From: Phycisphaerales bacterium UBA3190
GTDB taxonomy: Bacteria > Planctomycetota > Phycisphaerae > Phycisphaerales > UBA1924
Assembly: GCA_002364005.1 (NCBI GenBank)
Contig: DEXG01000023.1
Coordinates: 94,702-158,701, forward strand
Length of the DNA: 64,000 nt
Direction of reading: 5' to 3'
Shown here: one piece after another, positions 7,625 through 51,119 of the stretch
Position numbering within the stretch: the stretch's first letter is position 1
Layout: each line of letters opens with the position of its first letter
Position numbers and translations under genes: made by a program
Notes under the pieces: model-generated
What the model was told of the DNA's origin: nothing
Databases searched by the model: none
Seen by the model: only the letters and a program-made list of their open reading frames with translations

Positions 7625-7627
7625 GAC

Positions 7628-34608: not shown

Positions 34609-35169
34609 AGCGACTTAATGACTTAGACATGCGCCTTTACGAGTGTTCCGAGATATATGCTCTAATTTCGTGACCATGCAGTCGTACAGGCTCGCTTGGC
34701 CACATGCTAAGAATGTTATATTTTCAGCACAGTTGAGTTTAGCCAGGCAGAATCGATTCAGGAGGGCGTCTGCGAGCAGGAGCTTTATGTCGAACGAGCA
34801 GTTTCAATTCCTTTTTGAGATTCGATGTCTCAATCCATGCTCCTTTAGGATGTTGCGTATTGGTGCCACTTGAAATAGACTGGTGCCATATCGACGAGTA
34901 CCACAAGGGCGTTGATGTAGAAGCAACGGGCGGACTTTCCATGAACGTCGGTTAACCCCTATGAATTTCGTAGGCTCTTAAATTGCGTGCTACAAACATC
35001 ATCTGCTATCACGCATTTTGAACGACGCTGTGCCGCCCCAGCACAATGAGCATCTGCGAAGTAACGCGGATTCCATGGTGGACACTCACTGCACACTAGA
35101 ATTGCAATTTCGCGACTATGTAATACAAAATGAACTCAGAAACATCGTCAGTATGTTGTTCGACCCTGC

Positions 35170-35490
35170 CAAACTGTCATTGACGGCGCGTTCACATCCT
35201 GATGTAGTGCAGAACCCCGCAACAAAGCCCTCAATCGAGCCCTCGGGCCATGCGATCGCTCCCAAGTCATTGTCGCGGATCGAGTTGGGACGACCTGGGA
35301 CCAATTGGGACATGCCAACATTCAGCGTTTTCCTTTGTTCCCAAGCTGAATGTCGTCGGTTCGATCCCGATCACCCGCTTTCACAAGTCTCGCTTAAACA
35401 AGTGTTTATGCGAGGCTTGTTCTTTTTGCACTACACCTGGCCGCACTACAAATGGCCCTTTGTAGTGCAAATTCGTCCCAAATGTAGTGC
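35170..35490 (+). repeat. att junction 3: conserved upstream arm + 45-nt tRNA 3' half + conserved downstream arm
   Basis: Collinear with 11677-11997. The 45-nt core 35338-35382 is identical to the tRNA 3' half. Contains five GTAGTGC/GCACTAC sites. Confidence 0.75.
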
Positions 35491-35613
35491 GGCCCTGACC
35501 TCATCCCAGTCGGGCGTCCCCCTGGCCAACTCCGTGACGATGGTGACGACACGATGTCAGACCATCGTGCCAGGTCTCCAGCAACTGGTAGCAATCTACA
35601 CTATCATGTGTGC

Positions 35614-35850
35614 ATGACCAACGCTTCGACTGGATCCAGGGATGTTCCGGACCCGCCGCAGGTGATGACGATTGACGACTTGGCGTCGTATCTCCAAGTC
35701 GCCAAGTCAACGCTCTACAAACTTGCCCAAGAGGGCAAGGTGCCTGGGCAGAAGGTTGGGAAGCATTGGCGATTCAAGAAGGATGCCATCGACCGCTGGC
35801 TGGAGCATCGAGACGAAGGAAGAGGTGTTGACGTGGAGGACAGCAAATGA
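35614..35850 (+). CDS. Excisionase-family (MerR-like HTH_17) DNA-binding protein
   Basis: MTIDDLASYLQVAKSTLYKLAQEGKVPGQKVGKHWRFKKDAIDRWL. Alternative start at 35665. Its stop overlaps the ATG of the ATPase gene (ATGA at 35847-35850). Confidence 0.75.
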   Translation: MTNASTGSRDVPDPPQVMTIDDLASYLQVAKSTLYKLAQEGKVPGQKVGKHWRFKKDAIDRWLEHRDEGRGVDVEDSK

Positions 35851-38800
35851 TCGTCACAGTTCGAGACGCCTGCGTTCTCCAGGACAATGCCCTTGACCTG
35901 CGTGTGAGCGACCAAGTCGAGCAGCTCGACGAGCTCATCACGGCTGAGGGCGATGGCCGGGCCTACTTCGAGAAGACGCACGTTACTGCGGGCATGGACG
36001 AGCTGATTCGCGAGGGCATCAAGAGACTCGCTGGCAAGTCCAACAACGCGATCTTCCACCTCAAGCAGGCGATGGGCGGCGGTAAGACGCACTTGCTTGT
36101 CGGCTTTGGTCTTTTGGCGAAGCACAAGTCACTGCGAGAGTCTCATTTCGGCGAGGTCCCGCACGTTGACGGCTTCGCGACGGTTCGCATTGCGGCCTTC
36201 AATGGTCGCAATCAGCCGTCTTCGTTTCTTTGGGGCGATATCGCCCAGCAACTTGGTCGTCCTGACCTCTTCAAACCCTTCTGGGAGGGCGGGCCGAAGG
36301 CCCCGGACGAACGGGATTGGCTGAGCCTCTTCGAGAGCCCGGAGCCCACGCTCATTCTGCTCGACGAACTTCCTCCATACTTCCACTACTACGGCACACA
36401 GGCCGTTGGTGCCGGAACCGTAGCAGACATCGCAACACGTGCGTTCGCCAATATGCTGTCTGCAGCCGGCAAGAAATCCAATGTCTGTGTAGTGATATCC
36501 GACCTTGCGGCGAGCTATGACACCGGCAGCAAGCTGATCAACCGAGCCCTTGGGGACGCCAAGCAGGAGCTTGGCAGACAAGAGCACACCATCACGCCGG
36601 TCGACCTCGAAGGCAACGAAGTCTACGACATCCTTCGTAAGCGACTGTTCAAGTCGCTGCCATCCGACGACCAGATCGATGAAACGGCCCAGCAGTTTGC
36701 GAAGGCACTCGCCGAGGCAAAGAAGGCGAAGATCGCGAGCCGATCTGCAGAGGCGGTCGCCGACGAGATTGCCAAGACATACCCGTTTCACCCGCAGTTC
36801 AAGAACATCGTCGCACTGTTCAAAGAGAACGAGACGTACAAGCAGACACGCGGCCTTATGGAGCTCGTGTCTCGCCTCTTAAAGTCGGTCTGGAATCGAC
36901 CGGCGAATGATGTCTACCTCATCGGTCCGCAGCACTTCGATATGGCGTTGCCCGAAGTGCGAGAGAAGCTCGCCGATATCTCGGGGATGCGAGATGTCAT
37001 CGCAAAGGATCTGTGGGACAGTAACTTTTCTGCCCACGCTCAGATCATCGACCAGGACCGTGGTCAGGGAAAAACTGAAGCTGCGCAGGTCGGTGCTCTA
37101 CTGATCACCGCCAGCCTTTCGAACGCGGTCAACTCGGTGAAGGGGCTCACGCGAGAGGAAATGGTCGAGTGCCTTGTTGCTCCTCTTACGGACCCGTCGG
37201 AGTACCTCGACGCATTTGACGAGCTTGACGCACGGGCGTGGTACTTACACCACACTCCGGAAGGTCGCCATTACTTCGACCGGCAGGAGAACCTCACCAA
37301 ACTGCTCCAGAATCTCGCCGAGAAAGCCCCGCAGAACAAGATTGACGAGCTCATTCGGGATCGGTTGAAGAGCATGTACAAGGCCAGCCGCAAGGTGGCC
37401 TACAGCGAAGTGATCCCTCTACCAGAGCTCGACGAAATCGCCGAACGAGTCCGGAAGCAACGTGTGTTGGTCATCCACGACCCCGACTCGAAGATGCCGC
37501 CCGAGGAGGTCGCTCGCTTCTTCAACGATATTCTCCAAAAGAACAATCTACTTGTTCTGACAGGAACGCAGTCGAAGATGGCTTCGTTGGAGCAAGCGGC
37601 CCGAAACTTGTTCGCCGCTCTCCAAGCCGATGGCCGTATTCCCAAGGGGCATCCACAACGGGAAGAGTTGGAGAGCAAGACTGCCTCTTACGAGCAGGCA
37701 TTCAACGGGACGATTCGGGCGATCTTCGACCAACTCCTGATCCCGTTTCATCGACAGGGTGGACAGCCTCAGCTTCGCTCGAAGCCGCTGGACCAGACGC
37801 ATAGCCACAATGAGCCGTTCGATGGCGAGAAGCTCATCGAGCAGACGCTCCAGAGCGACCCGAAGAAGCTCTACCTGGATATCGAGAAAGACTTTGATGG
37901 TCTTCGCGATAAGGCCCAGGACCTGCTTTGGCCAGCCAACCAGGACGAAGCTCGCTGGAGCGATATGACGGACCGCATGGCCGAACAGGCAGGCATGCCG
38001 TGGCTGCCACCAAAGGGTCTCGAACAGCTCAAGGAGATCGGCTGCAGCCGAGGGCTCTGGGAAGACCTTGGCAACGGCTATGTGAGTAAGAAGCCCAAGC
38101 AGAAGAAGGCGACAGTCCAGGTCCTTGTTGAGTCCGGTCCGGATGACGAAGGAAACGTCCGACTGCGTGTCACCCCAATGCACGCTGGGAGCAATCCGCG
38201 GATTCACTACGCCGAGAATGCCGCAGCCACTGATGCCAGTCCACGGCTCGATGATGACCAGCTCACGACGAAGGCCCTTCGTGTGCAGTTCCTTGCCGTT
38301 GATCCTTCCGGCCAACACGAGAGTGACACACCGACCACCTGGAAGAACCAGCTCAAGCTCCGATGCGAACTCATCGAGGAGTCAGACCCTCGCCGTGTCC
38401 GGCTACTTGTTGTGCCATCGGGCGAGATCCGTTTCACGCTCGATGGAAGCGAGCCACGGAATGGCACGCCGTACAAGGAGCTCATCGAGATTGGCTCCAA
38501 CGAAGTCCGCATCCTCGCGTTCGCCGAGGCGGATGGCCTGGAGACGAAGGAGTCGTTTCAGTTCGCCGCAAAGGGCGAGACCAAGGTCAAGATCGACCCG
38601 AGCAAGCCGGCACACATCCAATCGGCCAAGGGTGGTGGCAAGAAGCTCGATTCTCGTGCAACGACTTTCACGGGTCTGCACGATGCGAAGGAACGAAAGG
38701 TCACCTTTGAGAACGTCGTGATGACGATCGGAGAAGGAAACAAAGGCGTTCAGGTCGTCTTCGGCGAAATCACGGTGAAGCCGGAGTACCTCCAGGCTGT

Positions 38801-38948
38801 CCTCGAATCTGCCTTGGAGGAGTTCCCGCCAGAGACCCCTGTGACGATGTCGTTCCGGAAAGCCCACTTCTCCAGTGGACACGACCTGGAGGCGTTCGCG
38901 AAAGCGGTGGGCATCGAGTTGGCACAAGGCGAGGTAGTCCAAGAGTGA
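35847..38948 (+). CDS. Large P-loop ATPase, DUF499 / BrxC-PglY-like
   Basis: 1033 aa with Walker A AMGGGKTHLL and Walker B TLILLDELPPY. C-terminal Ig/Fn3-like repeats (IRFTLDGSEPRNGTPYKELI). Confidence 0.85.
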   Translation: MIVTVRDACVLQDNALDLRVSDQVEQLDELITAEGDGRAYFEKTHVTAGMDELIREGIKRLAGKSNNAIFHLKQAMGGGKTHLLVGFGLLAKHKSLRESHFGEVPHVDGFATVRIAAFNGRNQPSSFLWGDIAQQLGRPDLFKPFWEGGPKAPDERDWLSLFESPEPTLILLDELPPYFHYYGTQAVGAGTVADIATRAFANMLSAAGKKSNVCVVISDLAASYDTGSKLINRALGDAKQELGRQEHTITPVDLEGNEVYDILRKRLFKSLPSDDQIDETAQQFAKALAEAKKAKIASRSAEAVADEIAKTYPFHPQFKNIVALFKENETYKQTRGLMELVSRLLKSVWNRPANDVYLIGPQHFDMALPEVREKLADISGMRDVIAKDLWDSNFSAHAQIIDQDRGQGKTEAAQVGALLITASLSNAVNSVKGLTREEMVECLVAPLTDPSEYLDAFDELDARAWYLHHTPEGRHYFDRQENLTKLLQNLAEKAPQNKIDELIRDRLKSMYKASRKVAYSEVIPLPELDEIAERVRKQRVLVIHDPDSKMPPEEVARFFNDILQKNNLLVLTGTQSKMASLEQAARNLFAALQADGRIPKGHPQREELESKTASYEQAFNGTIRAIFDQLLIPFHRQGGQPQLRSKPLDQTHSHNEPFDGEKLIEQTLQSDPKKLYLDIEKDFDGLRDKAQDLLWPANQDEARWSDMTDRMAEQAGMPWLPPKGLEQLKEIGCSRGLWEDLGNGYVSKKPKQKKATVQVLVESGPDDEGNVRLRVTPMHAGSNPRIHYAENAAATDASPRLDDDQLTTKALRVQFLAVDPSGQHESDTPTTWKNQLKLRCELIEESDPRRVRLLVVPSGEIRFTLDGSEPRNGTPYKELIEIGSNEVRILAFAEADGLETKESFQFAAKGETKVKIDPSKPAHIQSAKGGGKKLDSRATTFTGLHDAKERKVTFENVVMTIGEGNKGVQVVFGEITVKPEYLQAVLESALEEFPPETPVTMSFRKAHFSSGHDLEAFAKAVGIELAQGEVVQE

Positions 38949-39514
38949 TGTCAGCCACGCCGCTCAAGATGATTGACTTTGGTGCTCCCGACATCGTGGG
39001 AGCCCACGTGTTCCGCGTCGAGATCCCGCGGGCACGCAACGATGCCGTGGTCATCACTGAGCAGTATGGCTATCGGGGCGGTCATGGCGGCGTACCCGAA
39101 GAGGAACCACGCGTGCGGCTCAACCGCCATGTCTGGAGTGGAATCCGCGATGCCGCCAAGCGGGAGTTTAACACACGCCTGAAAGCAACCAAGTTGCCTG
39201 CGGGCCGGTGGAGTGTCGGAGACAACCTCGTCGATCGCATCCTCGGCAAGGAGCTATGCGTGCTGGCTTGGGCGGCCGAGGAAGCCACGGATGATGTGCT
39301 TCCGATCGTCTGCACGCGGTGGTCCGCTCTCCGGCCGGAAGAGCGGTGGTGGCTGTTCTCGATGACTTCGGCGGAAGCCGGACTTCCAGAAGACCGTGGC
39401 CGCGGCTGGCGGAAGGCACTTCGTAGTGCCCTCTGTGATGGCGAGAAGAGTGCTCCGCGGCCACGACCCGTTGAATCGCGAACGGGTCCACATCTCTTTG
39501 GAGACCTGCAATGA
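38945..39514 (+). CDS. Small accessory protein (DUF3780-like guess)
   Basis: 189 aa, start and stop both overlap neighbours (GTGATG at 38945-38950, ATGA at 39511-39514). Size and position match the DUF499-DUF1156 gene context. Confidence 0.6.
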   Translation: MMSATPLKMIDFGAPDIVGAHVFRVEIPRARNDAVVITEQYGYRGGHGGVPEEEPRVRLNRHVWSGIRDAAKREFNTRLKATKLPAGRWSVGDNLVDRILGKELCVLAWAAEEATDDVLPIVCTRWSALRPEERWWLFSMTSAEAGLPEDRGRGWRKALRSALCDGEKSAPRPRPVESRTGPHLFGDLQ

Positions 39515-42369
39515 GCACAACAAGCGAAGCCAGCCAGGTGGAGTCATTTGCATCGGACGGGGGGCTCGCTCCACACAGCCTGAAGGATGTGCCAGTCCTC
39601 ATCGAACGACTGTTCCCTGTGCAGAAGATGTCGGTTGAGAGCTACAAGGAGCAGATGGCCAACGTCGGAAAGACCCTGACTGCGTTGGGCAGCTATTGGA
39701 AGGGACGCAAGCCCCTCATCCTCAACAAGGCCTGCATCTTGGGCACATTACTACCCGCGACAAATGACCCAGTAAAGGACCTAGAGGTCTTTGAGCTCTT
39801 GATGGGTATGGACAATGACGGCCTGATGAGGCGCATGTGTGCGAAGGGTTCCATTAAGCACGGCGATCCTCTTCCTCGTAATTCGTATCACGAGCTCGTT
39901 AAGAAGTCGAAGCGACCAGAAGAGCTTGGGGATGCGTTTTTTGAGCCGATTTGGGACCGCGTCAATACCCACCTCGGCACGACCGCGTCGAGCTTCCCAG
40001 ACCTAATTGAACAGCTTGGGATCGCTCGGTTTGGACGCCGCCCGATAGTCGCCGACACATTTTGCGGCTCAGGCCAGATCCCGTTTGAAGCCGCTCGGCT
40101 TGGGTGCGATGTCATTGCGTCTGACCTTAATCCCATCGCATGCATGCTCACCTGGGGAGCGATGAATATTGTCGGTGGTCCTCCAGAGGAACGTAAAAGA
40201 CTAGCCTCCGAGCTAAAGACACTTTCTCAACGCGTGCTTGCGGAAGTTGACCGACTCGGCATAGAAACGGCGGAGCTTGATGGAAAACTCTGGCGAGGGA
40301 AGGTCTACCTGTATTGCGTTGAGACACGGTGTCCGTCGACTGGGTGGATGGTCCCCATGCTTCCAACCCGGGTAGTGAGCAAGACCCATTCAGTCATTGC
40401 GGAGCTTGTTCCCGATCCAGACTCTCAACGCTACGACATTCTGATTCGGCAAGGTGTTTCAGCGACAGAATTAAAAGCTGCTGCACACGGAACGGTCGTG
40501 CGGGACGCCCTAATCCATGTTGTAAACGGCATCGAATACCGAACCCAAATCAAGACGCTACGCGGTGACTTTCGAAGCGACGAGGGTTCGTCAGGGAGTC
40601 AACTTCGTCAATGGGAGAATCGCGACTTCAAACCTCGTCCCGAGGATGTCTTCCAGGAGAGGCTCTATGCCATCCAATGGCAGGAGGAGGGGCCGAATCG
40701 AGGGGAGCTAGCTTATAGGGGCGTGACCGCCGCCGACCTTGAACGCGAGGAGGCCGTCGACCGGTACCTATCCGAGCACTTTATGAACTGGCAGGCAGTT
40801 GGCTGGATTCCGGACATGAAGATTGAGGCCGGCTACAACACGAATCAACCGATCCGAGAGCGTGGCTGGACGCATTGGCACCATATGTTCAACCCACGGC
40901 AACTCCTTCTGCTGGGACTTATTCGCCAGTGCCTTTCGGCGGTGACATTCTTGCCATTCGCACAGGCATTGCAGTGCAACGCCCGTCTCAGTCGTTGGGA
41001 TAATTCGGCAGGCGGACGCGAAGCAGTCAAAGGTGTATTTGACAATCAGGCGCTAAATACACTCCTGAATTACGGATGCCGCGGCAGTCGCTATCTGCTC
41101 AAGGAGATGGACAAGACTCTTAAGGAATCCAGCATTCACGGTTCGGCTCGGATTGCCTGCGGTCCCGCTGAGGCGCATGGCCACGATTGTGATCTCTATG
41201 TAACTGATCCGCCGTATGGGGATGCCGTAAAGTACGAGGAGATTCTCGAGTTCTTCATCGCGTGGCTCCGCAAGAATCCTCCGCCCGAATTCGCAGAGTG
41301 GGTCTGGGATAGCCGACGAGCGCTCGCCATCCACGGGGAAGACGAGGGTTTTCGCCAAGGTATGGTTGCAGCTTATCGGAATATGACAGATCACATGTCG
41401 GAGAACGGCCTCCAGATCGTGATGTTCACGCATCAATCCACGGGGATCTGGGCAGACATGGCCAACATCGTCTGGGCAAGTGACCTTCAGGTGACTGCTG
41501 CATGGTATGTTGCAACCGAGACGGACTCTGCTCTGCGTCAGGGCGACAACGTGAAGGGCACCAACATTCTCGTTTTGAGGAAGCGGTGTGGGCACTCGAA
41601 AACCACGCGCGACGACCTGGCTTGGGAGCTTGAAGAGGAGGTCAAGCATCAGATCCAAACGCTCACGGGCCTCAATCAACAAGCCCTTGGGTTGTATCGT
41701 GACGAAAATCTGTTTGAGGATGCCGATCTTCAAATGGCCGGATACGCCGCGGCACTTCGGGTGTTGACACAGTACGCAGTCATCGACGGTAAGCAGATGA
41801 GCGAAGAAGCCTGCCGCCCGCGAGCGAGGGGCGAGAAAACCGCCGTGGACAGCCTCATCGACTTCGCTGTCGAAGTCGCCAACCGATGCCTGATCCCACA
41901 AGGCATTACCGAGAGCCACTGGCGAGAGTTGGAGCCTATTGAGCGGTTCTATCTGAAGATGCTCGGAATGGAAGCCAGCGGCGTCAGTAAACTCGACAAC
42001 TACCAGAACTTTGCCAAGGCGTTCAAGGTTTCAGACTTTCGCAGCGTGATGCAGTCGGCCAAGGCCAACAGCTCACGGCTTAAGTCGGCTGCGGAATTCA
42101 AGCGAAACGACATGGGCGAAGGCAGCCCGCTCCACAACACGCCGTTGCGGGCCATCCTCTACGCGATGATGGAGCTCGGGAAGGATGCGGACACTGACGA
42201 TGTGCTCGCTCACCTCGCGATGAATGTGCCGAACTACTACGCACAGGGGACGCGAGACCTGATCGTTGCTCTTTGTCAGTACCTCGGCACCGTGCTGGAG
42301 CCGATCCGGCCTGACGAGGCGAGCCACGCTCGCGTGCTTGCCCAGAGCGTGCGGAATCAGCGTCTGTGA
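39511..42369 (+). CDS. DNA methyltransferase, DUF1156 / COG1743-type (N6-A or N4-C, DPPY)
   Basis: Motif I FCGSGQIPFEAARLG..DLNP, motif IV LYVTDPPYGDAVKY, and a Zn-ribbon-like YCVETRCPSTGWMVP. Confidence 0.9.
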   Translation: MSTTSEASQVESFASDGGLAPHSLKDVPVLIERLFPVQKMSVESYKEQMANVGKTLTALGSYWKGRKPLILNKACILGTLLPATNDPVKDLEVFELLMGMDNDGLMRRMCAKGSIKHGDPLPRNSYHELVKKSKRPEELGDAFFEPIWDRVNTHLGTTASSFPDLIEQLGIARFGRRPIVADTFCGSGQIPFEAARLGCDVIASDLNPIACMLTWGAMNIVGGPPEERKRLASELKTLSQRVLAEVDRLGIETAELDGKLWRGKVYLYCVETRCPSTGWMVPMLPTRVVSKTHSVIAELVPDPDSQRYDILIRQGVSATELKAAAHGTVVRDALIHVVNGIEYRTQIKTLRGDFRSDEGSSGSQLRQWENRDFKPRPEDVFQERLYAIQWQEEGPNRGELAYRGVTAADLEREEAVDRYLSEHFMNWQAVGWIPDMKIEAGYNTNQPIRERGWTHWHHMFNPRQLLLLGLIRQCLSAVTFLPFAQALQCNARLSRWDNSAGGREAVKGVFDNQALNTLLNYGCRGSRYLLKEMDKTLKESSIHGSARIACGPAEAHGHDCDLYVTDPPYGDAVKYEEILEFFIAWLRKNPPPEFAEWVWDSRRALAIHGEDEGFRQGMVAAYRNMTDHMSENGLQIVMFTHQSTGIWADMANIVWASDLQVTAAWYVATETDSALRQGDNVKGTNILVLRKRCGHSKTTRDDLAWELEEEVKHQIQTLTGLNQQALGLYRDENLFEDADLQMAGYAAALRVLTQYAVIDGKQMSEEACRPRARGEKTAVDSLIDFAVEVANRCLIPQGITESHWRELEPIERFYLKMLGMEASGVSKLDNYQNFAKAFKVSDFRSVMQSAKANSSRLKSAAEFKRNDMGEGSPLHNTPLRAILYAMMELGKDADTDDVLAHLAMNVPNYYAQGTRDLIVALCQYLGTVLEPIRPDEASHARVLAQSVRNQRL

Positions 42370-42391
42370 TCTTGAAGCGAGGAGTGCGATA

Positions 42392-45091
42392 GTGTCCGGC
42401 ATTCAACGCTTCTCATCCCGGTGTACACCGCTCGACCGCGTGTACCTCGCCGACCGCTTGGCAAATGCGAAGAGCTACAAGCGAATCGCGGGCTACTTTC
42501 GGAGTTCAATCCTTGAGCTCGTTGGCGAGGAGATAGCGGGCATCCCAGATGTTCGCATCGTCTGCAACAGCGACCTCGACGTCGCCGATATAGCGGTGTC
42601 AAAGGCTGCTCGGGCCATCTCGCTGAAGGCGAAGTTCAACGAGGGCAACGCGGAGTTGGAAGCCCTTCTCTCCCGCGACCGGTATCGCAAGCTGTACGAC
42701 CTGCTGAGATCTGGCAATGTGCAGATCCGCGTGCTTCCGAAGGAGAAGGTGTTTCTCCACGGCAAAGCGGGGGTCATCGAGGGGCCTGCTGGGAAGACCT
42801 GTTTCCTCGGGTCTATTAACGAAACGAAGAGTGCATTCGCGTCCAACTACGAGATCCTCTGGGAGGACCCATCGCCGGAAGGGGTCGCGTGGGTAGAGGA
42901 GGAGTTTGATGCACTGTGGGCTGACGCGTTCGAGCTGCCCGAAGCCATCGTGGAGGAGATCGGCCGCATCGCGGACCGTATCGAGATCAGGTTCGAGGAC
43001 GCCGGGAAGGAACTCCCCGCGGCTACGCTCGCGGAGAGCCCGATCTACCGCAATGGCGAGCAGCTCCAGCCGTGGCAACGGTCGTTCGTGACAACGTTCC
43101 TGCAACACCGCGAGGCCTATGGCTCGGCGAGACTCCTTCTGGCAGATGAGGTTGGGCTCGGAAAGACGCTTTCGCTCGCGACGGCGTCGATGATCTCGTC
43201 GTTGCTTGGTGACGGTCCGGTACTCATCCTGTGCCCATCAACACTGACTTGGCAGTGGCAAGTTGAACTCAAGGACCGCCTCGGCATTCCGAGTGCGGTC
43301 TGGCATTCAAGCAAGAAGGAGTGGTTCGACCCGGACGGTCATCGGATCAGAACGCGCGGCCCGGAGGACATCGCCCGATGCCCCTACCAGATCGCCATCG
43401 TCTCAACTGGTTTGATCTTCCACCACACCAAGGAGCGGGAAGTGCTCCTTGGACGAAAGTATGGAACGCTCGTGCTCGACGAGGCCCACAAGGCCAGGCG
43501 GAGAGGTGGGCTTGGGAAAGAGGCAGGCAAGCCGAACAACTTGCTCGACTTCATGCTCAAGGCCGCGAGGAAAGCACGCCATTTGCTTCTCGGCACGGCC
43601 ACGCCAATCCAGACAGACGTGGCCGAGCTTTGGGACTTGCTCGACATTCTCGCAGTCGACAACGACTTCGTCCTCGGACGACCGCTCGTGAGCAGGTGGG
43701 TAGATCCGGAGCGTGCCCGGCCAATCGTGACAGGCGAGGAAACGCCGGACGATCAATCGGAGGCATGGGAGCTCTGCAGAACCCCACTGCCGCCAGCGTC
43801 CGAGCATCCACTATTCGCGAGTCTCCGTTCAAGCCTCGATATCGCAGACGACTTCTTCTATTCCAACCAGGGCGTGAGCGATCTGGATTACTTCGCCAAG
43901 CTTCAACTGGACCAAGCTATGGAGGCAGGCTTCTTCCGACAGCACAATCCAGTGCTTCGACATACGGTGCTTCGTCGCAGGAAGGCACTTGAGGACGAGG
44001 GGATGTTGAAGCCGATCGCGGTGGATGTTCACCCCGACCCTGACCGGCCAGACAAGTATCCCGGCCTGGTATTCACAGGACTCGGGTTGCAGACGAATCA
44101 CCCGTTTGATCAGGCGTACAAGGCGGCCGAGGATTTCACGACCGCACTTCAGCAGCGAACCAAGGGTGCAGGATTCATGCGTTCGATGCTGCTGCAACGA
44201 ATCTGTTCTAGCTTCGCTTCGGGCCGTTCCACCGCTCAGAAGCTCCTCGACAAGCAGGAGCTGGAAGACGCTGAGGACGACGGCCACGCGATCCTCGACG
44301 CGACCAGTGAGATGTCCCCCGAGGAAGCATCCTCTTTGAAGACCATTGTCGACGAACTCTCGCGCCCCGAAGCAAGAGACCCCAAGCTTGCGGCGGTGCA
44401 GTATTTCCTCGATAGGCACCGCAGCGACGGTAGGAGTTGGCTGCAGCTCGGCTGCATCATCTTCAGCCAGTACTACGACACCGCCTACTGGTTCGCTCAA
44501 CAGCTCTCGGAATGGCGGCCCGACGAACCTGTGGCTGTCTATGCGGGTGTTGGTAGGAGTGTTCTGTTCCGGCAAGGCCAACACGTCGCCATTGAGCGTG
44601 AGGAGATTAAGGCGGCGGTCAAGGACCGGACGATTCGGCTCCTCGTCGCAACTGACGCGGCGTGCGAAGGCCTGAACCTGCAGACGCTCGGCACGCTGAT
44701 CAACGTCGATCTGCCGTGGAATCCATCTCGGCTAGAGCAGCGACTCGGCAGAATCAAGCGTTTCGGCCAGGCCAGAGACAGCGTGGACATGCTCAATCTC
44801 GTTTATCACGAGACTCGGGATGAAGATGTGTATCGAGCTTTGTCACGACGACTGAAGGATCGGTACGACATATTCGGTGGCCTACCCGATACCATCGAAG
44901 ACGAGTGGATTCAGGACATCGCGCGCCTCGAAGAGCAGATGGACCTATACATCCACCTTCGCAAACAAGCGGTGGACGCATTCGACGTGAGATATCAAGC
45001 GACCATCGATCCCGAGGCGAACCGGTGGGAACTATGCAGCCGGGTGCTCTCACGGCAGGACGTTCGAGACCGACTCAGTGAATCTTGGTGA
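42392..45091 (+). CDS. PLD-nuclease / SNF2-family helicase fusion
   Basis: N-terminal PLD-like motif (LHGKAGVIE...GSINET). Helicase motifs LLADEVGLGKTL, LVLDEAHKAR, LLGTATPIQ, ATDAACEGLNLQ and NPSRLEQRLGRIKRFGQ. Start GTG 42392 follows GAGGAG. Confidence 0.9.
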   Translation: MSGIQRFSSRCTPLDRVYLADRLANAKSYKRIAGYFRSSILELVGEEIAGIPDVRIVCNSDLDVADIAVSKAARAISLKAKFNEGNAELEALLSRDRYRKLYDLLRSGNVQIRVLPKEKVFLHGKAGVIEGPAGKTCFLGSINETKSAFASNYEILWEDPSPEGVAWVEEEFDALWADAFELPEAIVEEIGRIADRIEIRFEDAGKELPAATLAESPIYRNGEQLQPWQRSFVTTFLQHREAYGSARLLLADEVGLGKTLSLATASMISSLLGDGPVLILCPSTLTWQWQVELKDRLGIPSAVWHSSKKEWFDPDGHRIRTRGPEDIARCPYQIAIVSTGLIFHHTKEREVLLGRKYGTLVLDEAHKARRRGGLGKEAGKPNNLLDFMLKAARKARHLLLGTATPIQTDVAELWDLLDILAVDNDFVLGRPLVSRWVDPERARPIVTGEETPDDQSEAWELCRTPLPPASEHPLFASLRSSLDIADDFFYSNQGVSDLDYFAKLQLDQAMEAGFFRQHNPVLRHTVLRRRKALEDEGMLKPIAVDVHPDPDRPDKYPGLVFTGLGLQTNHPFDQAYKAAEDFTTALQQRTKGAGFMRSMLLQRICSSFASGRSTAQKLLDKQELEDAEDDGHAILDATSEMSPEEASSLKTIVDELSRPEARDPKLAAVQYFLDRHRSDGRSWLQLGCIIFSQYYDTAYWFAQQLSEWRPDEPVAVYAGVGRSVLFRQGQHVAIEREEIKAAVKDRTIRLLVATDAACEGLNLQTLGTLINVDLPWNPSRLEQRLGRIKRFGQARDSVDMLNLVYHETRDEDVYRALSRRLKDRYDIFGGLPDTIEDEWIQDIARLEEQMDLYIHLRKQAVDAFDVRYQATIDPEANRWELCSRVLSRQDVRDRLSESW

Positions 45092-46169
45092 AATGTTCAC
45101 TCTCGGCTGTCAGCCGCATCCGCAAGTGCCTGCCGCGGTCTTCGTCTACACACGAGAGGCAGCCCCAGTTTCGCGTGCGGACCATCCAGCAAAACAAGCC
45201 CGGGACATTCCGTCGTCCGACGCGAACCGCGTGGGCAGCAGCGGCAAATACCGCCAGTATGTCCGCTTCGGTCTTCTTAACCAGCCCACGTAGCCTCGCC
45301 TGCTTGAACAATGCCGCCAACCGCCACGGGTCTTTGAGATCCTCCACCGTCACCTCATTCAGGTTTGGTTCTTTCGCTCGTGTGCGAGCACCAGCCGCGT
45401 CCGTCGCATGGGCGGGTTTCTGGTGATCAACTCTCGTAGAGAGTTTCTTGTGATCTCTTAGGGGTGCAGATTTGGTTGTGGATTGTGCCGGACGGTGTGC
45501 GGATTCGCTCATCCATCTCAGACAAATGACCAGCGGTCTGCCGAACCGATTCAGGCGGAGTTGGTCTGCTCGGAGCAATCTGAATACGCCAAGTTCCACC
45601 AGCCGGGTGCGTGCATCCTTGACTGCTCGAACAGCAACGTCGAAGACCTCGGCGACCCATGATGCTTTGCACCAACCGCCGGACCGACAAATGCCGTTCT
45701 TGTAATACAGACAGCGGATAAGATGACCGAGCACAGTGGCGATGTAAGCTCGCCCACTCGATTTGCTCAGCATCCGAATGACCGTTCGGGGTACCGGAAC
45801 GGGCCTTCCAGGATCATCGTTCACTTCGTACGGCATGGTGATGAGCTCATCCTCACAGAAGCGTACCAACCCGTGCCGTTGCAATGCGCGAAGTGAATGT
45901 CGAATGTGCTGGCCCCCAACTCCGCCAACTAGGCCGTGGATCTCTTCGATTGTAAAACGTGGTTTGCGTCCTTCTTCGAGCGTGCACCGTCTGGCATTGA
46001 CCTCATGGCAAGCCAACCACACGCGAAGGTCTCGGAGAGCGATCTCCCCAGACCGGAGGTATCCCCAGACAGCATGGATGCTGTTCTCGTGAATGAAACA
46101 GAATCCACCGTGAGGTTTTGCTGCTTCTACGTACCAATCCTGTCCGCGCGCGTATTCAATCGTTGCCAT
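45075..46169 (-). CDS. Hypothetical wHTH protein, possible replication-initiator/regulator of the element
   Basis: 364 aa, convergent with the helicase gene and divergent from parA. ATG 46169 follows GGAGAGAG. No catalytic motif recognised. Confidence 0.55.
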   Translation of the reverse strand: MATIEYARGQDWYVEAAKPHGGFCFIHENSIHAVWGYLRSGEIALRDLRVWLACHEVNARRCTLEEGRKPRFTIEEIHGLVGGVGGQHIRHSLRALQRHGLVRFCEDELITMPYEVNDDPGRPVPVPRTVIRMLSKSSGRAYIATVLGHLIRCLYYKNGICRSGGWCKASWVAEVFDVAVRAVKDARTRLVELGVFRLLRADQLRLNRFGRPLVICLRWMSESAHRPAQSTTKSAPLRDHKKLSTRVDHQKPAHATDAAGARTRAKEPNLNEVTVEDLKDPWRLAALFKQARLRGLVKKTEADILAVFAAAAHAVRVGRRNVPGLFCWMVRTRNWGCLSCVDEDRGRHLRMRLTAESEHFTKIH

Positions 46170-46226
46170 ATCTCTCTCCATCAATGTGGTTTCGAGAGAC
46201 CGGTGGGTTGGTGGCACCACCAACCG

Positions 46227-46256
46227 TTGACGACCGTGCACAAAATGTCGTAGATT
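46227..46256 (+). promoter_or_regulatory. Sigma70-like promoter candidate (TTGACG-18 nt-TAGATT)
   Basis: TTGACG at 46227-46232 and TAGATT at 46251-46256, directly after an 8-bp inverted repeat GGTTGGTG-GCAC-CACCAACC (46206-46225). Confidence 0.3.
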
Positions 46257-46330: not shown

Positions 46331-46559
46331 CTCTTGAACTACACCATCACCCGTTTTGATGCTGCATGGCAAGCCCCGTGTGCATCATCACGGCGAAATG
46401 GCACCAACGCCATATCGCTCAATGCGCGTGAAAGCCAACCGGTTGACGCCCTCCTCCATGCTGTGCCATTGTCATAGCGAATATGCAGCGTTCGGGCTTT
46501 CGGCCCATATGCCGTTGAGGCTCTTTGAGTTTTGCCAACCTAGCTACACGGAGGAGCTC

Positions 46560-47450
46560 ATGAATGGACTTGAAACAACTTGGGGTGGGATTGTCATTGC
46601 GGTCGGCAACCAGAAAGGCGGCGTTGGCAAGACTACGACCGCCGTTCACGTCGCGTGCGGACTCGCCAACCGCGGGCATCGAACACTCTTGTGGGACCTA
46701 GACCCATCAGCCGGTGCCACAAAGCACCTCGGGCTCACCCCAGATGCGTATCCAGGCACGCTTGAGCTGCTGCTTGGAGACATCAATGTGGACGAAGCGT
46801 GCATCTCCCATACCAACCACGACATCGACATGCCTGACCGCCTCAGCATCATCCCATCGAAACGTCGACTTGAAAGAATCGACTCAACCCTCGGCTCACG
46901 ATGCCGTTTCTTCAATCCGCTCGATGTTCTCGCCCACCCAATCGCGACACTCCGTCAATCATTCGACATCATCGTGCTGGATACACCACCGAGCACGGTG
47001 CTCTCGCCGTCACTGGCGACCTACGCATCGGCTGATTGGTTCCTGCTCGCGGCGATGCCCGACCCGCTCGCTATCACAGGCCTGGCCGATGCAGCCCGCG
47101 ACATCGAAGCGGTCCGCGATTCTGCCAACCGGAAGCTCCAGCTCCTCGGCGTCGTGCTCAATGCCGTCGATAACCGCACTCGACTCTGTCGAGAGCTGAC
47201 CACCTATGTAGATGAATGCTTCGCATCGCCAACCGGGGACACGCTGAGGCTCACACCAACTATCAGCCGGTCCACGGTGGTACCAACCGCCCAAAAATTA
47301 GGGCGGTCCGTCATCGACGCGTTCCCCCGTCATCCTGTGGCGGAGCAGTTCCTCGCAATCGCCATAGCCATTGAGGACCGCCTGATTCTCGCTCAACGAG
47401 CTCTTGGCGATGCGATATCTGAAGCTTCGCTTGCGGGTGGTCTCCGATGA
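46560..47450 (+). CDS. parA: ParA/Soj-family partition ATPase
   Basis: Deviant Walker A VGNQKGGVGKTTTAVH. ATG 46560 follows GAGGAG. Confidence 0.9.
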   Translation: MNGLETTWGGIVIAVGNQKGGVGKTTTAVHVACGLANRGHRTLLWDLDPSAGATKHLGLTPDAYPGTLELLLGDINVDEACISHTNHDIDMPDRLSIIPSKRRLERIDSTLGSRCRFFNPLDVLAHPIATLRQSFDIIVLDTPPSTVLSPSLATYASADWFLLAAMPDPLAITGLADAARDIEAVRDSANRKLQLLGVVLNAVDNRTRLCRELTTYVDECFASPTGDTLRLTPTISRSTVVPTAQKLGRSVIDAFPRHPVAEQFLAIAIAIEDRLILAQRALGDAISEASLAGGLR

Positions 47451-47881
47451 GCCAGAGACATTCAAATCGCCCATTCTCTCCGCTCGACGATGTCCGGTCA
47501 TCATCGTTGTGCCAGGCAAGACCTTCCGAGGAACGCCTTCAATTGGGGGCTCAAAGAACTACCCAGCTTCCTCGCTCGCCATCCAACACCCAACGCACGA
47601 CACTTCGCACACGGATGCTTCCCGACGAAAAGCGTCGCGTCGAGTCGCTTTGCGTCTCACTCAGCGAAAGTCTCCGTGCAACGGTCAGGCCCAGTAACCT
47701 CCTGAGAGCACTCCTCATTCTGGTCCGAGAGACCGAATCAGGAATTCATGCCGAGGCTCGTCGGGTACATGGGCTGGAGCGACCGTCCAACAATGACAGA
47801 CCAGGGATAGAGGACTTTGAGCGTGCTCTCGCCGTCGTAATTCGCGATGGCATATCTGCTGCAGTGTCGCGGCATCGGTGA
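47447..47881 (+). CDS. Small basic protein coupled to parA (candidate centromere-binding partner)
   Basis: ATGA overlap with the parA stop. 144 aa with an Arg/Ser-rich N-terminus and a helical C-terminus. Confidence 0.45.
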   Translation: MSQRHSNRPFSPLDDVRSSSLCQARPSEERLQLGAQRTTQLPRSPSNTQRTTLRTRMLPDEKRRVESLCVSLSESLRATVRPSNLLRALLILVRETESGIHAEARRVHGLERPSNNDRPGIEDFERALAVVIRDGISAAVSRHR

Positions 47882-48313
47882 GATAGATGCTACGGATTGG
47901 CTCAGCGGTCGGCACGTTCCACCGGCACCGGTCACGCCAGGTGTTCTTCAAAAGTGTTTGAGGTACGCAGTTCCTCCGGAACACCTGTCATGCCCGGTGC
48001 CTTATCGGTGGAATGTACCGGCTGTCTTTGTCCAAACGGTATAGCCCCAAGGACGCTTTGCGTCCGTCGCGAATGCTGTGTCATGAGTCGTCACGCTCCA
48101 AGCACGCTGCGCGTGCGTCGCGTGGCTGTATTTATGGTGCTTTCTCGACAACGGGGCCAGCGAGATTTGAACAGCTGTGAAAATCCTCGCCGCCCCCGTT
48201 GTCAGGAAAGCACGTGATTGGGGGCGGAGGCAAATCGGAGAACAGGAGATGAACACGACAACACACACCAACTCGGAAGCGACTACCAGCTTTCGTATCC
48301 AAGACTGGGCACG

Positions 48314-49563: not shown

Positions 49564-49676
49564 AACAGATTTCGGGTGTCCGCGACTGGTCCCGCCGGTC
49601 GAGGATATCCGGCTCGCTCGTGATAAAACGAGCAAGCAAATCCATGAATAGATGACACTGGCAGCGGGACTGCTGG

Positions 49677-50072: not shown

Positions 50073-50131
50073 ACAACCCGCGGGGTTTGGCACTGACTCG
50101 CCTGGCCCCGCCGAAACTCTACGAGAGGAAC

Positions 50132-51076: not shown

Positions 51077-51119
51077 CTGATGCAAGCAGAATCGCCTTAG
51101 AGCATTTGGAGGTCTGCAA

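What the first reader, a model, noticed from the sequence alone, without database searches (positions are those of the whole stretch)
35614..45091. Five-gene coupled cassette: HTH + DUF499-type ATPase + small protein + DUF1156-type methyltransferase + PLD-SNF2 helicase (RM-like defence system of unknown mechanism)
All five genes are on one strand, and four junctions are overlaps or near-overlaps: ATGA at 35847, GTGATG at 38945, ATGA at 39511, and GTG 42392 lying 22 nt after the previous stop with its own GAGGAG. The motifs seen directly are:

- **ATPase:** Walker A/B (GGGKTH, LILLDELPPY).
- **Methyltransferase:** motif I (FCGSGQ), motif IV (DPPY) and a Zn-ribbon-like segment.
- **Helicase:** PLD HxK...GSxN, plus a complete SNF2 helicase motif set.

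From memory of comparative-genomics work on defence islands, COG1483/DUF499 - DUF3780 - COG1743/DUF1156 - SNF2 helicase is a recurrent predicted RM-like module. It shares the DUF499 ATPase with BREX (BrxC/PglY) but lacks PglZ and BrxL. Its mechanism is, to my knowledge, essentially uncharacterised. It may overlap with the core of recently named methylation-associated systems, which I cannot verify here. It sits at the att-proximal cargo position of a mobile element, as defence genes typically do.
Basis: partly seen in the sequence, partly recalled or inferred. Interest (0 to 1): 0.78.

Follow-up and report, generated by a model that had tools for sequence, protein, structure and literature searches.

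The report
Type-2 BREX-related defence cassette on ICE
This is an intact copy of an already catalogued, restriction-modification-like anti-phage gene cassette (DUF499 ATPase, DUF3780, DUF1156 methyltransferase, PLD-Snf2 helicase-nuclease, plus an optional small HTH gene), and it is ordinary as a find because only the biochemical mechanism of this kind of system is still untested.

Summary
Those motifs are invariant in 42-58 orthologues.

- All four large proteins pass the curated cut-offs of NCBIfam equivalogs NF042961-NF042964 ("anti-phage-associated DUF3780/DUF499/DUF1156", "phospholipase D-like anti-phage protein").
- They match PADLOC models PDLC02189-02193 end to end.
- The architecture is the "Type-2 BREX-Related (BR) system" of Rakesh & Krishnan (NAR 2026), reported in 1120 taxa.

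The gene order is the same in all 80 related genome loci I fetched. The HTH_17/MAD1-like leader gene is optional, being clear in 6 of 55 loci.

The cassette begins about 230 nt after a third direct copy of the tRNA-Gly 3' end, at the edge of a conjugative element. The "att-proximal cargo" claim is therefore supported.

I found no experimental work on type-2 BR. The nearest tested relative is HmaA of type-1 BR/Hma.

Side leads: the methyltransferase is a mosaic whose recognition half looks swapped, and some phages carry orphan DUF3780 copies that lack the C-terminal tail.

Verdict: a new member of a known kind, of low-to-moderate interest.

The parts
35338..35383 (+). Third direct copy of the 3' 45 nt of tRNA-Gly(CCC). 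It is an att-type junction marking the left edge of the conjugative island that carries the cassette.
   Evidence: It matches 3671-3716 (the tRNA itself) and 11845-11889 exactly.
35396..35490 (+). Conserved island 'arm' next to the att copy. It holds four GCACTACA/TGTAGTGC 8-mers, two direct and two inverted. It is shared by all three tandem islands, so it is probably a set of recombinase or RDF arm sites, not an operator specific to the cassette.
35614..35850 (+). Small HTH_17 (excisionase/MerR-type, MAD1-like) DNA-binding protein. It is an optional leader gene of the operon and overlaps the DUF499 start by ATGA. Alternative starts are 35554 and 35665.
   Evidence: - Pfam HTH_17: E = 4e-16.
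- PADLOC mad1: E = 2e-12.
- NCBIfam MAD1: 71.7 bits, below the cut-off of 80. TIGR01764: 58.6 bits, above its cut-off of 28.8.
- Homologues lie directly upstream of DUF499 in L001, L004, L019, L034, L053 and L074.
35847..38948 (+). DUF499 AAA+ (ORC/Cdc6-STAND-like) ATPase of 1033 aa. It has Walker A GGGKTH, Walker B LLDE and a C-terminal FnIII-like region.
   Evidence: - NF042962: 1444.6 bits against a cut-off of 1200.
- PDLC02192: 1527.9 bits, full length.
- Pfam DUF499, plus CHB_HEX_C_1/Fn3_assoc at aa 849-900.
- The motifs are invariant in 58 sequences.
38945..39514 (+). DUF3780 protein of 188-189 aa (the start is GTG 38945 or ATG 38948). It is a highly conserved alpha+beta protein with a basic C-terminal tail and no assigned biochemical function.
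   Evidence: - Pfam: E = 3e-69.
- NF042961: 229.2 bits against a cut-off of 200.
- 4859 homologues. Mean column identity is 75% across 20 sequences from several phyla and an archaeon.
- The AF2 model has 4 strands and 5 helices at pLDDT 67.6, with no PDB fold match.
39511..42369 (+). DUF1156-type, predicted N6-adenine DNA methyltransferase of 952 aa. Motif I FCGSGQ (aa 184) and motif IV DPPY (aa 566) are separated by an insert of about 380 aa, presumed to be the target-recognition region.
   Evidence: - NF042963: 1261.3 bits against a cut-off of 1000.
- PDLC02189: 1393 bits.
- Pfam DUF1156.
- The motifs are invariant in 53 sequences.
- Against L001 it is a mosaic: aa 1-560 are mostly 45-68% identical and aa 561-952 are 72-97% identical.
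42392..45091 (+). Fusion of a PLD/HKD nuclease domain (aa 21-176, a single HxK...GSxN motif) to a Swi2/Snf2 helicase (GLGKT, DEAH, QRLGR), 899 aa. It is the predicted effector.
   Evidence: - NF042964: 1199.9 bits against a cut-off of 1100.
- PDLC02193: 1381 bits, full length.
- Pfam PLDc_2, SNF2-rel_dom and Helicase_C.
- The motifs are invariant in 42 sequences.

Best explanation
The cassette is a complete, apparently functional Type-2 BREX-Related (DUF499-centred) defence system. It is carried as cargo at the att-proximal edge of an integrative conjugative element inserted at tRNA-Gly(CCC) in a Phycisphaerae (Planctomycetota) genome.

Proposed mechanism:
1. The DUF1156 methyltransferase N6-methylates adenine in a short sequence motif set by its large insert between motifs I and IV. 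This marks the host and element DNA as self. (Inferred.)
2. The DUF499 ORC/Cdc6-like AAA+ ATPase, with its variable C-terminal FnIII/RRM-like region, acts as the ATP-dependent scaffold or sensor. DUF3780 is a tightly bound adaptor. (Inferred.)
3. On unmethylated incoming DNA, the Snf2 motor of the fifth protein translocates along dsDNA and its N-terminal HKD domain cuts the DNA. The protein has only one HKD motif. PLD-family nucleases build one active site from two motifs (established for Nuc and BfiI), so cleavage should need two helicase-nuclease molecules to meet. (Inferred.)
4. The small HTH_17 protein is an optional transcriptional regulator, translationally coupled to the ATPase gene. 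(Inferred.)

What the sequence shows directly is the gene set, the coupling, the intact motifs, the conserved synteny and the location.
For: **Identity**
- All four large proteins exceed the curated cut-offs of NCBIfam equivalogs NF042961-64.
- They match PADLOC PDLC02189-02193 end to end.
- Pfam gives DUF499, DUF3780, DUF1156 and PLDc_2+SNF2+Helicase_C.
- The published definition of the Type-2 BR system matches feature by feature.

**Operon and integrity**
- The junctions are overlaps or a short spacer.
- No terminator-like excess lies inside the cassette.
- Catalytic residues are invariant in 42-58 orthologues.

**Conservation**
- The order DUF499-DUF3780-MTase-helicase is identical in all 80 genome loci from many phyla.
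- It is also identical in plasmid and viral-contig copies.

**RM-like logic**
- The methyltransferase half that holds the insert is as divergent from the closely related L001 copy as from any other family member (mostly 45-68% identity).
- The rest of the system is 84-97% identical to L001.
- That pattern is what a swapped specificity module would look like.

**Tested relative and context**
- In the related type-1 BR/Hma system, the Snf2-nuclease fusion HmaA protects E. coli against T4. Its nuclease (nickase) activity is essential for defence, and the Snf2 motif VI mutant R610A abolishes defence (PMC11232893).
- Mobile-element context: the att copy at 35338-35383 and the conjugation genes downstream.
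Against: - No experiment on any type-2 BR system was found in the library. Methylation, the recognised motif, DNA cleavage and phage protection are all inferred.
- No solved structure is detectably related by sequence to the ATPase, DUF3780 or the methyltransferase.
- Across phyla, the presumed recognition insert is still about 50% identical. That is much less variable than the TRDs of type I/II systems.
- DUF3780 and the other proteins are unusually conserved for defence proteins, at 60-68% identity across phyla.
- BREX itself, the nearest well-studied relative, does not obviously degrade DNA.
- The host is an uncultured MAG, so expression is unknown.
Confidence: 0.7

Rival explanations
1. 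BREX-like exclusion without DNA degradation. The ATPase, DUF3780 and methyltransferase complex recognises unmethylated sites and blocks replication of incoming DNA. DUF499 is ORC/Cdc6-like. The PLD-Snf2 protein would act mainly as a remodeller or loader, not as a double-strand nuclease.
For: - The family is related to BREX in both its ATPase and its methyltransferase. PADLOC PglX/PglXI hits aa 415-650 of the methyltransferase at E = 2e-9, and the 2026 paper draws the same link.
- Bell et al. 2020 proposed that DUF499 could interfere with replication of foreign DNA (PMC7641849).
- The HmaA nuclease domain of the type-1 relative is a nickase, not a double-strand cutter.
Against: - The HKD residues H123, K125, S141 and N143 are invariant in 42 orthologues.
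- 83% of type-2 systems keep the HKD fusion, and the rest recruit other nucleases. That argues for a nucleolytic effector.
Confidence: 0.12
2. Modification-dependent (type IV-like) restriction. DUF3780 reads modified bases on phage DNA and directs the helicase-nuclease to it. The methyltransferase serves as an antitoxin-like protector of host DNA.
For: - The 2026 paper proposes that DUF3780 is a 'reader' replacing the Tudor domain. It notes rare fusions of DUF3780 to ASCH/PUA and RAMA domains.
- Bell et al. 2020 found EVE readers associated with the related archaeal operons.
Against: - DUF3780 has no detectable fold similarity to known modified-base readers. The best Foldseek PDB hit has E = 0.066 and TM about 0.2, on a model of only moderate confidence.
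- A reader of diverse phage modifications would be expected to vary. DUF3780 is one of the most conserved parts of the system.
Confidence: 0.08
3. The main selected role is selfish maintenance or inter-element competition for the ICE: post-segregational killing, or exclusion of rival plasmids and ICEs. Phage defence of the host would be secondary.
For: - The cassette is the first cargo after the att copy of a conjugative element.
- That element also carries an ArdC-like anti-restriction gene and an orphan N6_N4 methyltransferase.
- The same element family carries the cassette in another Planctomycetota genome, L001.
- Other copies sit on conjugative plasmids and beside Tn7-like transposition genes.
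Against: - This is not exclusive of the main explanation, because the molecular mechanism would be the same.
- Most of the 80 related loci show no obvious mobile-element genes next to the cassette within the sequence examined, and their upstream contexts are heterogeneous.
Confidence: 0.1
4. A sub-claim about the first gene only. The HTH_17 protein is the excisionase or recombination directionality factor of the ICE and happens to abut the cassette. It is not a component of the defence system.
For: - It passes the 'excisionase family DNA-binding protein' model TIGR01764 at 58.6 bits against a cut-off of 28.8, but misses the MAD1 cut-off (71.7 bits against 80).
- It lies about 230 nt from an att copy, next to arm-type repeats shared by all three tandem islands.
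- 48 of 55 related loci have no such gene.
- Three of the loci that do have it also have a tRNA gene within 1.3-3.6 kb.
Against: - It overlaps the ATPase start codon (ATGA) in both the window and L001.
- Homologues lie 30-40 nt upstream of DUF499, on the same strand, in six loci from Planctomycetota, Oligoflexia, Desulfobacterales, Thermodesulfobacteriaceae and Verrucomicrobia. In the loci with enough upstream sequence (none could be examined in L074) the genes upstream of them are unrelated and often divergent. A viral contig, L105, shows the same arrangement.
- Islands 1 and 2 share the arm repeats but have no such gene after them.
Confidence: 0.2

Closest known systems
Type-2 BREX-Related (BR) system (Rakesh & Krishnan, Nucleic Acids Res 2026, PMC12839542). 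It corresponds to the NCBIfam set NF042961-NF042964 and PADLOC models PDLC02189-02193. From memory, not checked here, it is also the COG1483-DUF3780-COG1743-helicase module predicted by Makarova et al. 2011.
   Same: - The same four proteins in the same order.
- A standalone DUF3780.
[quoted passage not shown]
- A DUF1156 N-terminal domain on the methyltransferase.
- An FnIII-like region near the C-terminus of the ATPase.
- All curated score cut-offs are passed.
   Different: - It carries an extra HTH_17/MAD1-like leader gene that the paper does not describe and that only about 11% of related loci have.
- It lacks the inserted accessory genes (Schlafen/AlbA_2-HATPase_c_4, Macro, YhcG nuclease, PIN, DUF3800, AbiEii) that roughly half of the relatives carry between the core genes.
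Hma system, also called the Type-1 BR system (PADLOC 2021, PMC8565338). HmaA was tested in Halomonas meridiana (PMC11232893).
   Same: - The same tripartite logic of a DUF499-type ATPase, a DUF1156-type methyltransferase and a Snf2 helicase-nuclease fusion.
- Detectable homology: HmaC 173.5 bits, HmaB 64.6 bits and HmaA 116 bits.
   Different: - Hma has no DUF3780.
- The HmaA nuclease is a C-terminal PD-(D/E)XK nickase with an N-terminal Tudor domain. Here the nuclease is an N-terminal HKD domain.
- The gene order differs.
- The matches cover only part of each protein.
BREX, especially type 3 (BrxC, PglXI, BrxHII, PglZ, BrxA, BrxB)
   Same: - Methylation-based discrimination of self from non-self is predicted.
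- The ATPase is remotely related to BrxC.
- The methyltransferase resembles PglXI (E = 2e-9).
- The helicase resembles BrxHI/HII (about 90 bits).
   Different: - No PglZ, BrxL, BrxA or BrxB was detected in or beside the cassette.
- No BrxC model hit the ATPase at E <= 0.01.
- A nuclease domain is fused to the helicase.
DISARM class 1 (DrmD Snf2 helicase, DrmMI, DrmA, DrmB, DrmC PLD nuclease)
   Same: It combines a Snf2 helicase, an adenine methyltransferase and a PLD nuclease. The best foreign match of the helicase is DrmD at 151-180 bits.
   Different: - The DrmD score is far below its cut-off (180.5 bits against 610).
- There is no DrmA and no DrmB/DUF1998.
- Here the PLD domain is fused to the Snf2 protein instead of being a separate DrmC.
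MADS (methylation-associated defence system), component MAD1
   Same: The small HTH leader protein resembles MAD1 (PADLOC mad1 at E = 2e-12; NF047737 at 71.7 bits).
   Different: The score is below the MAD1 cut-off of 80. The only other trace of a MADS component is a weak mad2 match on the methyltransferase (E = 0.0014).

Membership tests
Type-2 BREX-Related (BR) system | DUF499-family AAA+ ATPase, distinct from BrxC/DUF6079 | tested here: met
   NF042962 scores 1444.6 bits against a cut-off of 1200. PDLC02192 scores 1527.9 bits over the full length, and no BrxC model appears in the hit list.
Type-2 BREX-Related (BR) system | A standalone DUF3780 gene inside the locus, between the ATPase and the methyltransferase | tested here: met
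   Pfam DUF3780 at E = 3e-69. NF042961 scores 229.2 bits against a cut-off of 200. Its position at 38945-39514 overlaps both neighbours.
Type-2 BREX-Related (BR) system | N6-type methyltransferase with an N-terminal DUF1156 domain and an insert after the first core strands | tested here: met
   Pfam DUF1156 covers aa 35-85. NF042963 scores 1261.3 bits against a cut-off of 1000. FCGSGQ lies at aa 184 and DPPY at aa 566. N6-adenine specificity itself was not tested.
Type-2 BREX-Related (BR) system | Swi2/Snf2 helicase whose N-terminal Tudor domain is replaced by an HKD (PLD) nuclease domain | tested here: met
   PLDc_2 covers aa 21-176, SNF2-rel_dom aa 235-423 and Helicase_C aa 688-792, with no Tudor hit. 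NF042964 scores 1199.9 bits against a cut-off of 1100.
Type-2 BREX-Related (BR) system | Tandem FnIII-like domains before a C-terminal RRM in the ATPase (present in 53% of type-2 systems) | tested here: inconclusive
   One FnIII-associated Pfam hit (CHB_HEX_C_1/Fn3_assoc) covers aa 849-900. The second repeat and the RRM fold were not modelled.
Type-2 BREX-Related (BR) system | Anti-phage activity and self-methylation | not testable with these tools
   No experimental report for type 2 was found. This needs cloning, phage challenge and methylome sequencing.
BREX (types 1-6) | PglZ alkaline-phosphatase-like protein, together with a BrxC/PglY ATPase and BrxL, BrxA or BrxB | tested here: not met
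   No PglZ, BrxL, BrxA or BrxB hit appeared in the five proteins or in the flanking ORFs between 32.3 and 60 kb.
Hma / Type-1 BR system | A three-gene set, with a helicase carrying an N-terminal Tudor domain and a C-terminal PD-(D/E)XK nuclease, and no DUF3780 | tested here: not met
   The HmaA, HmaB and HmaC matches are only partial (116, 64.6 and 173.5 bits). DUF3780 is present, and the nuclease is an N-terminal HKD domain.
DISARM | DrmA helicase and DrmB (DUF1998), with DrmD scoring above its equivalog cut-off | tested here: not met
   DrmD NF038317 scores 180.5 bits against a cut-off of 610. No separate DrmA gene and no DrmB (DUF1998) gene is present: the only DrmA match (96 bits) falls on the shared SF2 helicase core of the PLD-Snf2 protein.
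MADS | MAD1 HTH scoring above its cut-off, together with the other MAD components | tested here: not met
   NF047737 scores 71.7 bits against a cut-off of 80. The only other match is a weak mad2 hit on the methyltransferase (E = 0.0014).

The most novel reading that the evidence does not exclude
DUF3780 is the linchpin adaptor of type-2 BR systems. Its globular core would bind the C-terminal FnIII/RRM region of the DUF499 ATPase. Its conserved basic C-terminal tail (DGEK..RRPRPxE..LF) would recruit or license the methyltransferase or the HKD-Snf2 effector. Some phages would then carry tail-less DUF3780 copies as dominant-negative subunit mimics that switch the system off, which would be a new kind of anti-defence protein. 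In Proteus phage Pm34 the tail-less copy sits next to a copy of just the ATPase C-terminal region. The evidence so far is only comparative. All four orphan phage copies stop at the same point, just before the tail, while keeping the core motifs.
Probability: 0.2. Interest if true: 0.6.

Novelty: new member of a known kind. Interest (0 to 1): 0.3.

Why it matters
As a discovery it matters little. NCBI's pipeline already names these four genes, PADLOC carries models for them, and a 2026 survey catalogued the type in more than a thousand taxa.

Its value is as material for experiment:
- It is a compact five-gene version with intact motifs.
- It has no inserted accessory genes.
- It comes from an under-studied phylum (Planctomycetota).
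- It sits on a conjugative element.

That makes it a clean candidate for the first biochemical study of type-2 BR systems. Their methylated motif, their trigger and the role of DUF3780 are all unknown.

Two comparative observations made here give concrete handles for such work: the methyltransferase whose recognition half looks swapped, and the tail-less orphan DUF3780 genes in phages.

Tried and rejected
1. **GCACTACA repeats as an operator.** I first read the four GCACTACA/TGTAGTGC repeats upstream of the HTH gene as an operator for the cassette. I rejected this because the same 105-nt arm follows all three copies of the tRNA-Gly 3' end, including two islands that have no cassette.
2. **The convergent 388-aa ORF at 45075-46241 as a sixth component.** Rejected. 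It has no Pfam or PADLOC hit. It recurs only in L001, which shares the same ICE backbone, and in none of the other loci.
3. **The ORF at 35018-35617 (199 aa) upstream.** It spans the tRNA-fragment repeat and has no family hit, so I treat it as spurious.
4. **Fold search for DUF3780.**
   - The AF2 model has only moderate confidence (pLDDT 67.6).
   - Foldseek against the PDB gave nothing significant: best E = 0.066 and TM <= 0.25. Weak partial resemblance to PUR/Whirly-like beta-beta-beta-beta-alpha units (MRP1/2, Pur-alpha) is a lead at most.
   - Sequence searches of the PDB for the ATPase, DUF3780 and the methyltransferase found nothing.
5. **Literature.**
   - Makarova et al. 2011 is not held in the library, so that attribution rests on memory.
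   - A search for the MADS paper was swamped by mitotic MAD1 papers.
6. **Promoter and terminator scan.** It gave no informative sites, with fewer hits than in shuffled sequence.
7. **HTH candidates.** L016 and L011 turned out on alignment to be poor or decayed matches. I count six clear cases, not eight.

Full report

Yes. The mechanical ORF list shows five co-directional ORFs on the + strand:

| ORF (window coordinates) | Length | Identity |
|---|---|---|
| 35554/35614..35850 | 98 or 78 aa | HTH |
| 35847..38948 | 1033 aa | DUF499 ATPase |
| 38945..39514 | 189 aa | DUF3780 |
| 39511..42369 | 952 aa | DUF1156 methyltransferase |
| 42392..45091 | 899 aa | PLD-Snf2 helicase |

Reading the junctions confirms each one:
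- ATGA at 35847, behind a GGAGGA.
- GTGATG at 38945.
- ATGA at 39511.
- A 22-nt spacer containing GAGGAG before GTG 42392.

The quoted motifs are all present: GGGKTH, LILLDELPPY, FCGSGQ, DPPY, H-x-K...GSxN, GLGKT, DEAH and QRLGR.

I aligned orthologues from 42-58 related loci. In those alignments every one of these catalytic residues is invariant.

There are three small corrections:
- The DUF3780 start may be ATG 38948. The identical database protein has 188 aa.
- The HTH start is ambiguous, though conservation with the closest relative favours 35614.
- The 'Zn-ribbon-like' segment is not a CxxC ribbon. Four conserved cysteines exist (C199, C211, C269, C274).

**2. What is it?**

Pfam gives HTH_17, then DUF499 with an FnIII-associated hit at aa 849-900, then DUF3780 (E = 3e-69), then DUF1156, then PLDc_2 + SNF2 + Helicase_C.

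PADLOC has dedicated models. They match end to end at 1528, 242, 1393 and 1381 bits:
- DUF499 (PDLC02192)
- DUF3780 (PDLC02191)
- DUF1156_MTase (PDLC02189)
- PLD_Helicase (PDLC02193)

NCBIfam has four curated equivalogs, NF042961-NF042964. They are named 'anti-phage-associated DUF3780/DUF499/DUF1156 domain-containing protein' and 'phospholipase D-like domain-containing anti-phage protein'. All four window proteins exceed the trusted cut-offs.

The literature search found Rakesh & Krishnan, NAR 2026 (PMC12839542). They define 'DUF499-centred BREX-Related (BR) systems' in three types. Their Type-2, found in 1120 taxa, has:
- a DUF499 ATPase, often with two FnIII-like domains before a C-terminal RRM;
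- a standalone DUF3780, in 98% of cases;
- a DUF1156 N6-methyltransferase;
- a Swi2/Snf2 helicase whose N-terminal Tudor domain is replaced by an HKD nuclease, in 83% of cases.

That is exactly this cassette.

Earlier sightings were by Bell et al. 2020 and, from my memory only, by Makarova et al. 2011, which the library does not hold.

Type-1 BR is the PADLOC 'Hma' system.

**3. Comparative evidence gathered here**

*Breadth.* DUF3780 has 4859 homologues in the 90%-clustered database and 647 clusters at 50% identity. A scan of one genome per species found 465 loci.

*Gene order.* In the 80 loci kept, the order DUF499-DUF3780-MTase-helicase never varies.

*Inserted genes.* About half of the loci have one or more extra genes inserted between the methyltransferase and the helicase, or between DUF3780 and the methyltransferase. 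These include Schlafen/AlbA_2 + HATPase_c_4, Macro, YhcG PD-(D/E)XK nuclease, PIN, DUF3800, AbiEii and a transposase. They match the 'auxiliary effectors' of the 2026 paper. The window copy is the compact form without them.

*Conservation.* All four proteins are 59-68% identical to the window copy across Verrucomicrobiota, Pseudomonadota, Desulfobacterota, Chloroflexota, Cyanobacteria and Acidobacteriota. DUF3780 is about 63% identical even in a Methanomethylovorans archaeon. That is unusually conserved for a defence system.

**4. The HTH gene**

It is an HTH_17/excisionase-family protein. It resembles MAD1 of MADS but scores below that model's cut-off.

A clear homologue lies directly upstream of DUF499, on the same strand, in only 6 of 55 loci with enough upstream sequence: L001, L004, L019, L034, L053 and L074. 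L011 looks decayed and L016 was a false lead. One viral contig, L105, has the same arrangement.

Where upstream sequence was available, the genes upstream of these six are unrelated and often divergent (none could be examined in L074). I therefore treat the HTH as an optional leader or regulator gene of the operon.

The alternative, that it is the ICE's excisionase, keeps about 0.2 probability. The gene sits about 230 nt from an att copy and passes the excisionase model.

**5. Context**

The 3' 45 nt of tRNA-Gly(CCC) (3671-3716) recur exactly at 11845-11889 and 35338-35383. Each copy is followed by a conserved arm of about 105 nt holding four GCACTACA-type 8-mers. The window therefore holds a tandem array of islands:

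| Island | Extent | Contents |
|---|---|---|
| 1 | 3716-11845 | RND efflux |
| 2 | 11890-35338 | Multicopper oxidase, P-type ATPase and others |
| 3 | From 35383 to beyond the window end | The defence cassette, then ParA, an ArdC-like protein, an orphan N6_N4 methyltransferase, a TrwC relaxase and a coupling protein |

The same ICE family, with the same cassette and neighbours, sits at tRNA-Gly(CCC) in Planctomycetota isolate PNC22 (L001).

Other copies sit on 21 PLSDB plasmids. One is an A. baumannii conjugative plasmid where PGAP already labels the four genes, next to Tn7-like tnsD/tnsE genes.

**6. Mechanism**

*Shown directly by sequence:*
- a coupled operon;
- an intact AAA+ ATPase, a DPPY methyltransferase, a single-HKD nuclease and a Snf2 motor;
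- invariant synteny.

*Inferred:* methylation of a specific motif marks self. The ATPase with DUF3780 senses or scaffolds. The Snf2-HKD protein translocates and cuts unmethylated DNA.

The protein has a single HKD motif. PLD nucleases such as Nuc and BfiI build one site from two motifs (established knowledge). So two effector molecules must come together to cut.

One new piece of support for sequence-specific methylation comes from comparing the window with L001:

| Protein or region | Identity to L001 |
|---|---|
| ATPase | 90% |
| DUF3780 | 84% |
| Helicase | 89% |
| Methyltransferase aa 561-952 | 72-97% |
| Methyltransferase aa 1-560 | mostly 45-68% |

Methyltransferase residues 1-560 hold the DUF1156 domain, motif I and the long insert. 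Their identity to L001 is about the family background. This is the signature of a swapped specificity module.

Against the RM analogy, that insert is still about 50% identical family-wide. Nothing is known experimentally for type 2.

The nearest tested protein is HmaA of type-1 BR. It protects E. coli from T4. Defence needs its nuclease (nickase) activity and an intact Snf2 motif VI: the R610A mutant loses defence, while the motif I mutant T136A unexpectedly increased it.

Rival readings are listed with probabilities in the Rival explanations section. They are BREX-like exclusion without cleavage, modification-dependent restriction with DUF3780 as a reader, and selfish ICE maintenance.

**7. 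DUF3780**

- No PDB sequence relative was found.
- The AF2 model (pLDDT 67.6) has four strands followed by five helices. That agrees with the published description.
- Foldseek against the PDB found nothing significant.

In passing I found orphan DUF3780 genes in real phage contexts:
- Proteus phage vB_PvuS_Pm34 gp4. The gene before it, gp5, matches only residues 846-1033 of the ATPase.
- Two IMG/VR contigs. In one the orphan is next to a large terminase. In the other it is next to a RecE-like exonuclease and virion proteins.
- One weaker case, L094.

All four keep the core motifs but end exactly before the basic C-terminal tail that every system-encoded copy carries. Eleven other viral contigs carry the full system or what remains of it on a truncated contig.

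This suggests two things, without proving either. DUF3780 may bind the ATPase C-terminal region. The tail-less phage copies may be subunit-mimic inhibitors. The 2026 paper does not mention either observation.

**8. Verdict**

The system is a standard member of a kind that has been named and catalogued and that NCBI's curated models already label, so its novelty is low. Only the mechanism remains unknown.

I score interest at 0.3. The most novel reading still open is the DUF3780 adaptor and phage-mimic idea, at about 0.2 probability.

Noticed in passing
window 3641-3716, 11845-11889 and 35338-35383, with arms up to about 3830, 12000 and 35490: There are three exact direct copies of the 3' 45 nt of tRNA-Gly(CCC). 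Each is followed by a conserved arm of about 105 nt with four GCACTACA/TGTAGTGC 8-mers. This indicates a tandem array of at least three islands integrated at one tRNA gene. No integrase gene was identified among the ORFs scanned with Pfam, which did not cover every ORF; the integrase of island 3 may lie beyond 64 kb.
   Followed up: partly
window 4403-31311: Islands 1 and 2 carry metal and efflux cargo: an AcrB/CzcA-type RND pump, a multicopper oxidase, a P-type ATPase and YHS/TRASH metal-binding proteins. A SpoIIE phosphatase and an HD-domain protein are also present.
   Followed up: partly
window 46356-55972: The ICE backbone downstream of the cassette encodes ParA, an ArdC-like anti-restriction protein (ArdcN + M78 peptidase), an orphan N6_N4 DNA methyltransferase, a TrwC relaxase and a TraG/TraD-type coupling protein. 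One element thus carries both a restriction-like system and anti-restriction genes.
   Followed up: partly
window 45075-46241 (- strand): A 388-aa ORF converges on the helicase gene and overlaps its 3' end by 17 nt. It has no Pfam or PADLOC hit. It is conserved (461 bits) only in L001, which shares the ICE backbone, so it is probably an ICE gene and not part of the defence system.
   Followed up: yes
L081 (Proteus phage vB_PvuS_Pm34, KY420199) 6398-7486; L087 7992-8447; L093 7986-8465; L094 5182-5685: Phage genomes carry orphan DUF3780 genes with no methyltransferase or helicase. All four lack the conserved basic C-terminal tail of the system-encoded copies. In Pm34 the preceding gene matches only the C-terminal 190 aa of the DUF499 ATPase. 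They may be anti-defence subunit mimics, or remnants of captured cassettes.
   Followed up: partly
window 39511-41190 compared with L001 10552-12250: The methyltransferase is a mosaic relative to the otherwise 84-90% identical L001 cassette. Residues 1-560 are mostly 45-68% identical, and residues 561-952 are 72-97% identical. This points to recombinational exchange of the recognition half.
   Followed up: partly
L002-L080 (for example L007 13591-15333, L019 14186-15337, L034 10528-11733): About half of the related loci have accessory genes inserted between the core genes. These encode Schlafen/AlbA_2 + HATPase_c_4, Macro domain, YhcG PD-(D/E)XK nuclease, PIN, DUF3800, AbiEii and a DDE transposase. 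The window copy has none of them.
   Followed up: partly
L082 (A. baumannii plasmid pJBA13_1, NZ_CP020582) 1-14149: On about 90-kb conjugative Acinetobacter baumannii plasmids, the same four-gene system lies beside Tn7-like tnsD/tnsE genes. It is preceded by a 361-aa XRE-family regulator in place of the small HTH_17 gene.
   Followed up: no
DUF3780, DUF499, MTase and helicase orthologues in L001-L080, plus P0022: All four proteins are unusually conserved for a defence system, at about 60-68% identity across distant bacterial phyla. DUF3780 is about 63% identical in a Methanomethylovorans archaeon. This points to strong constraint or recent wide horizontal spread.
   Followed up: no
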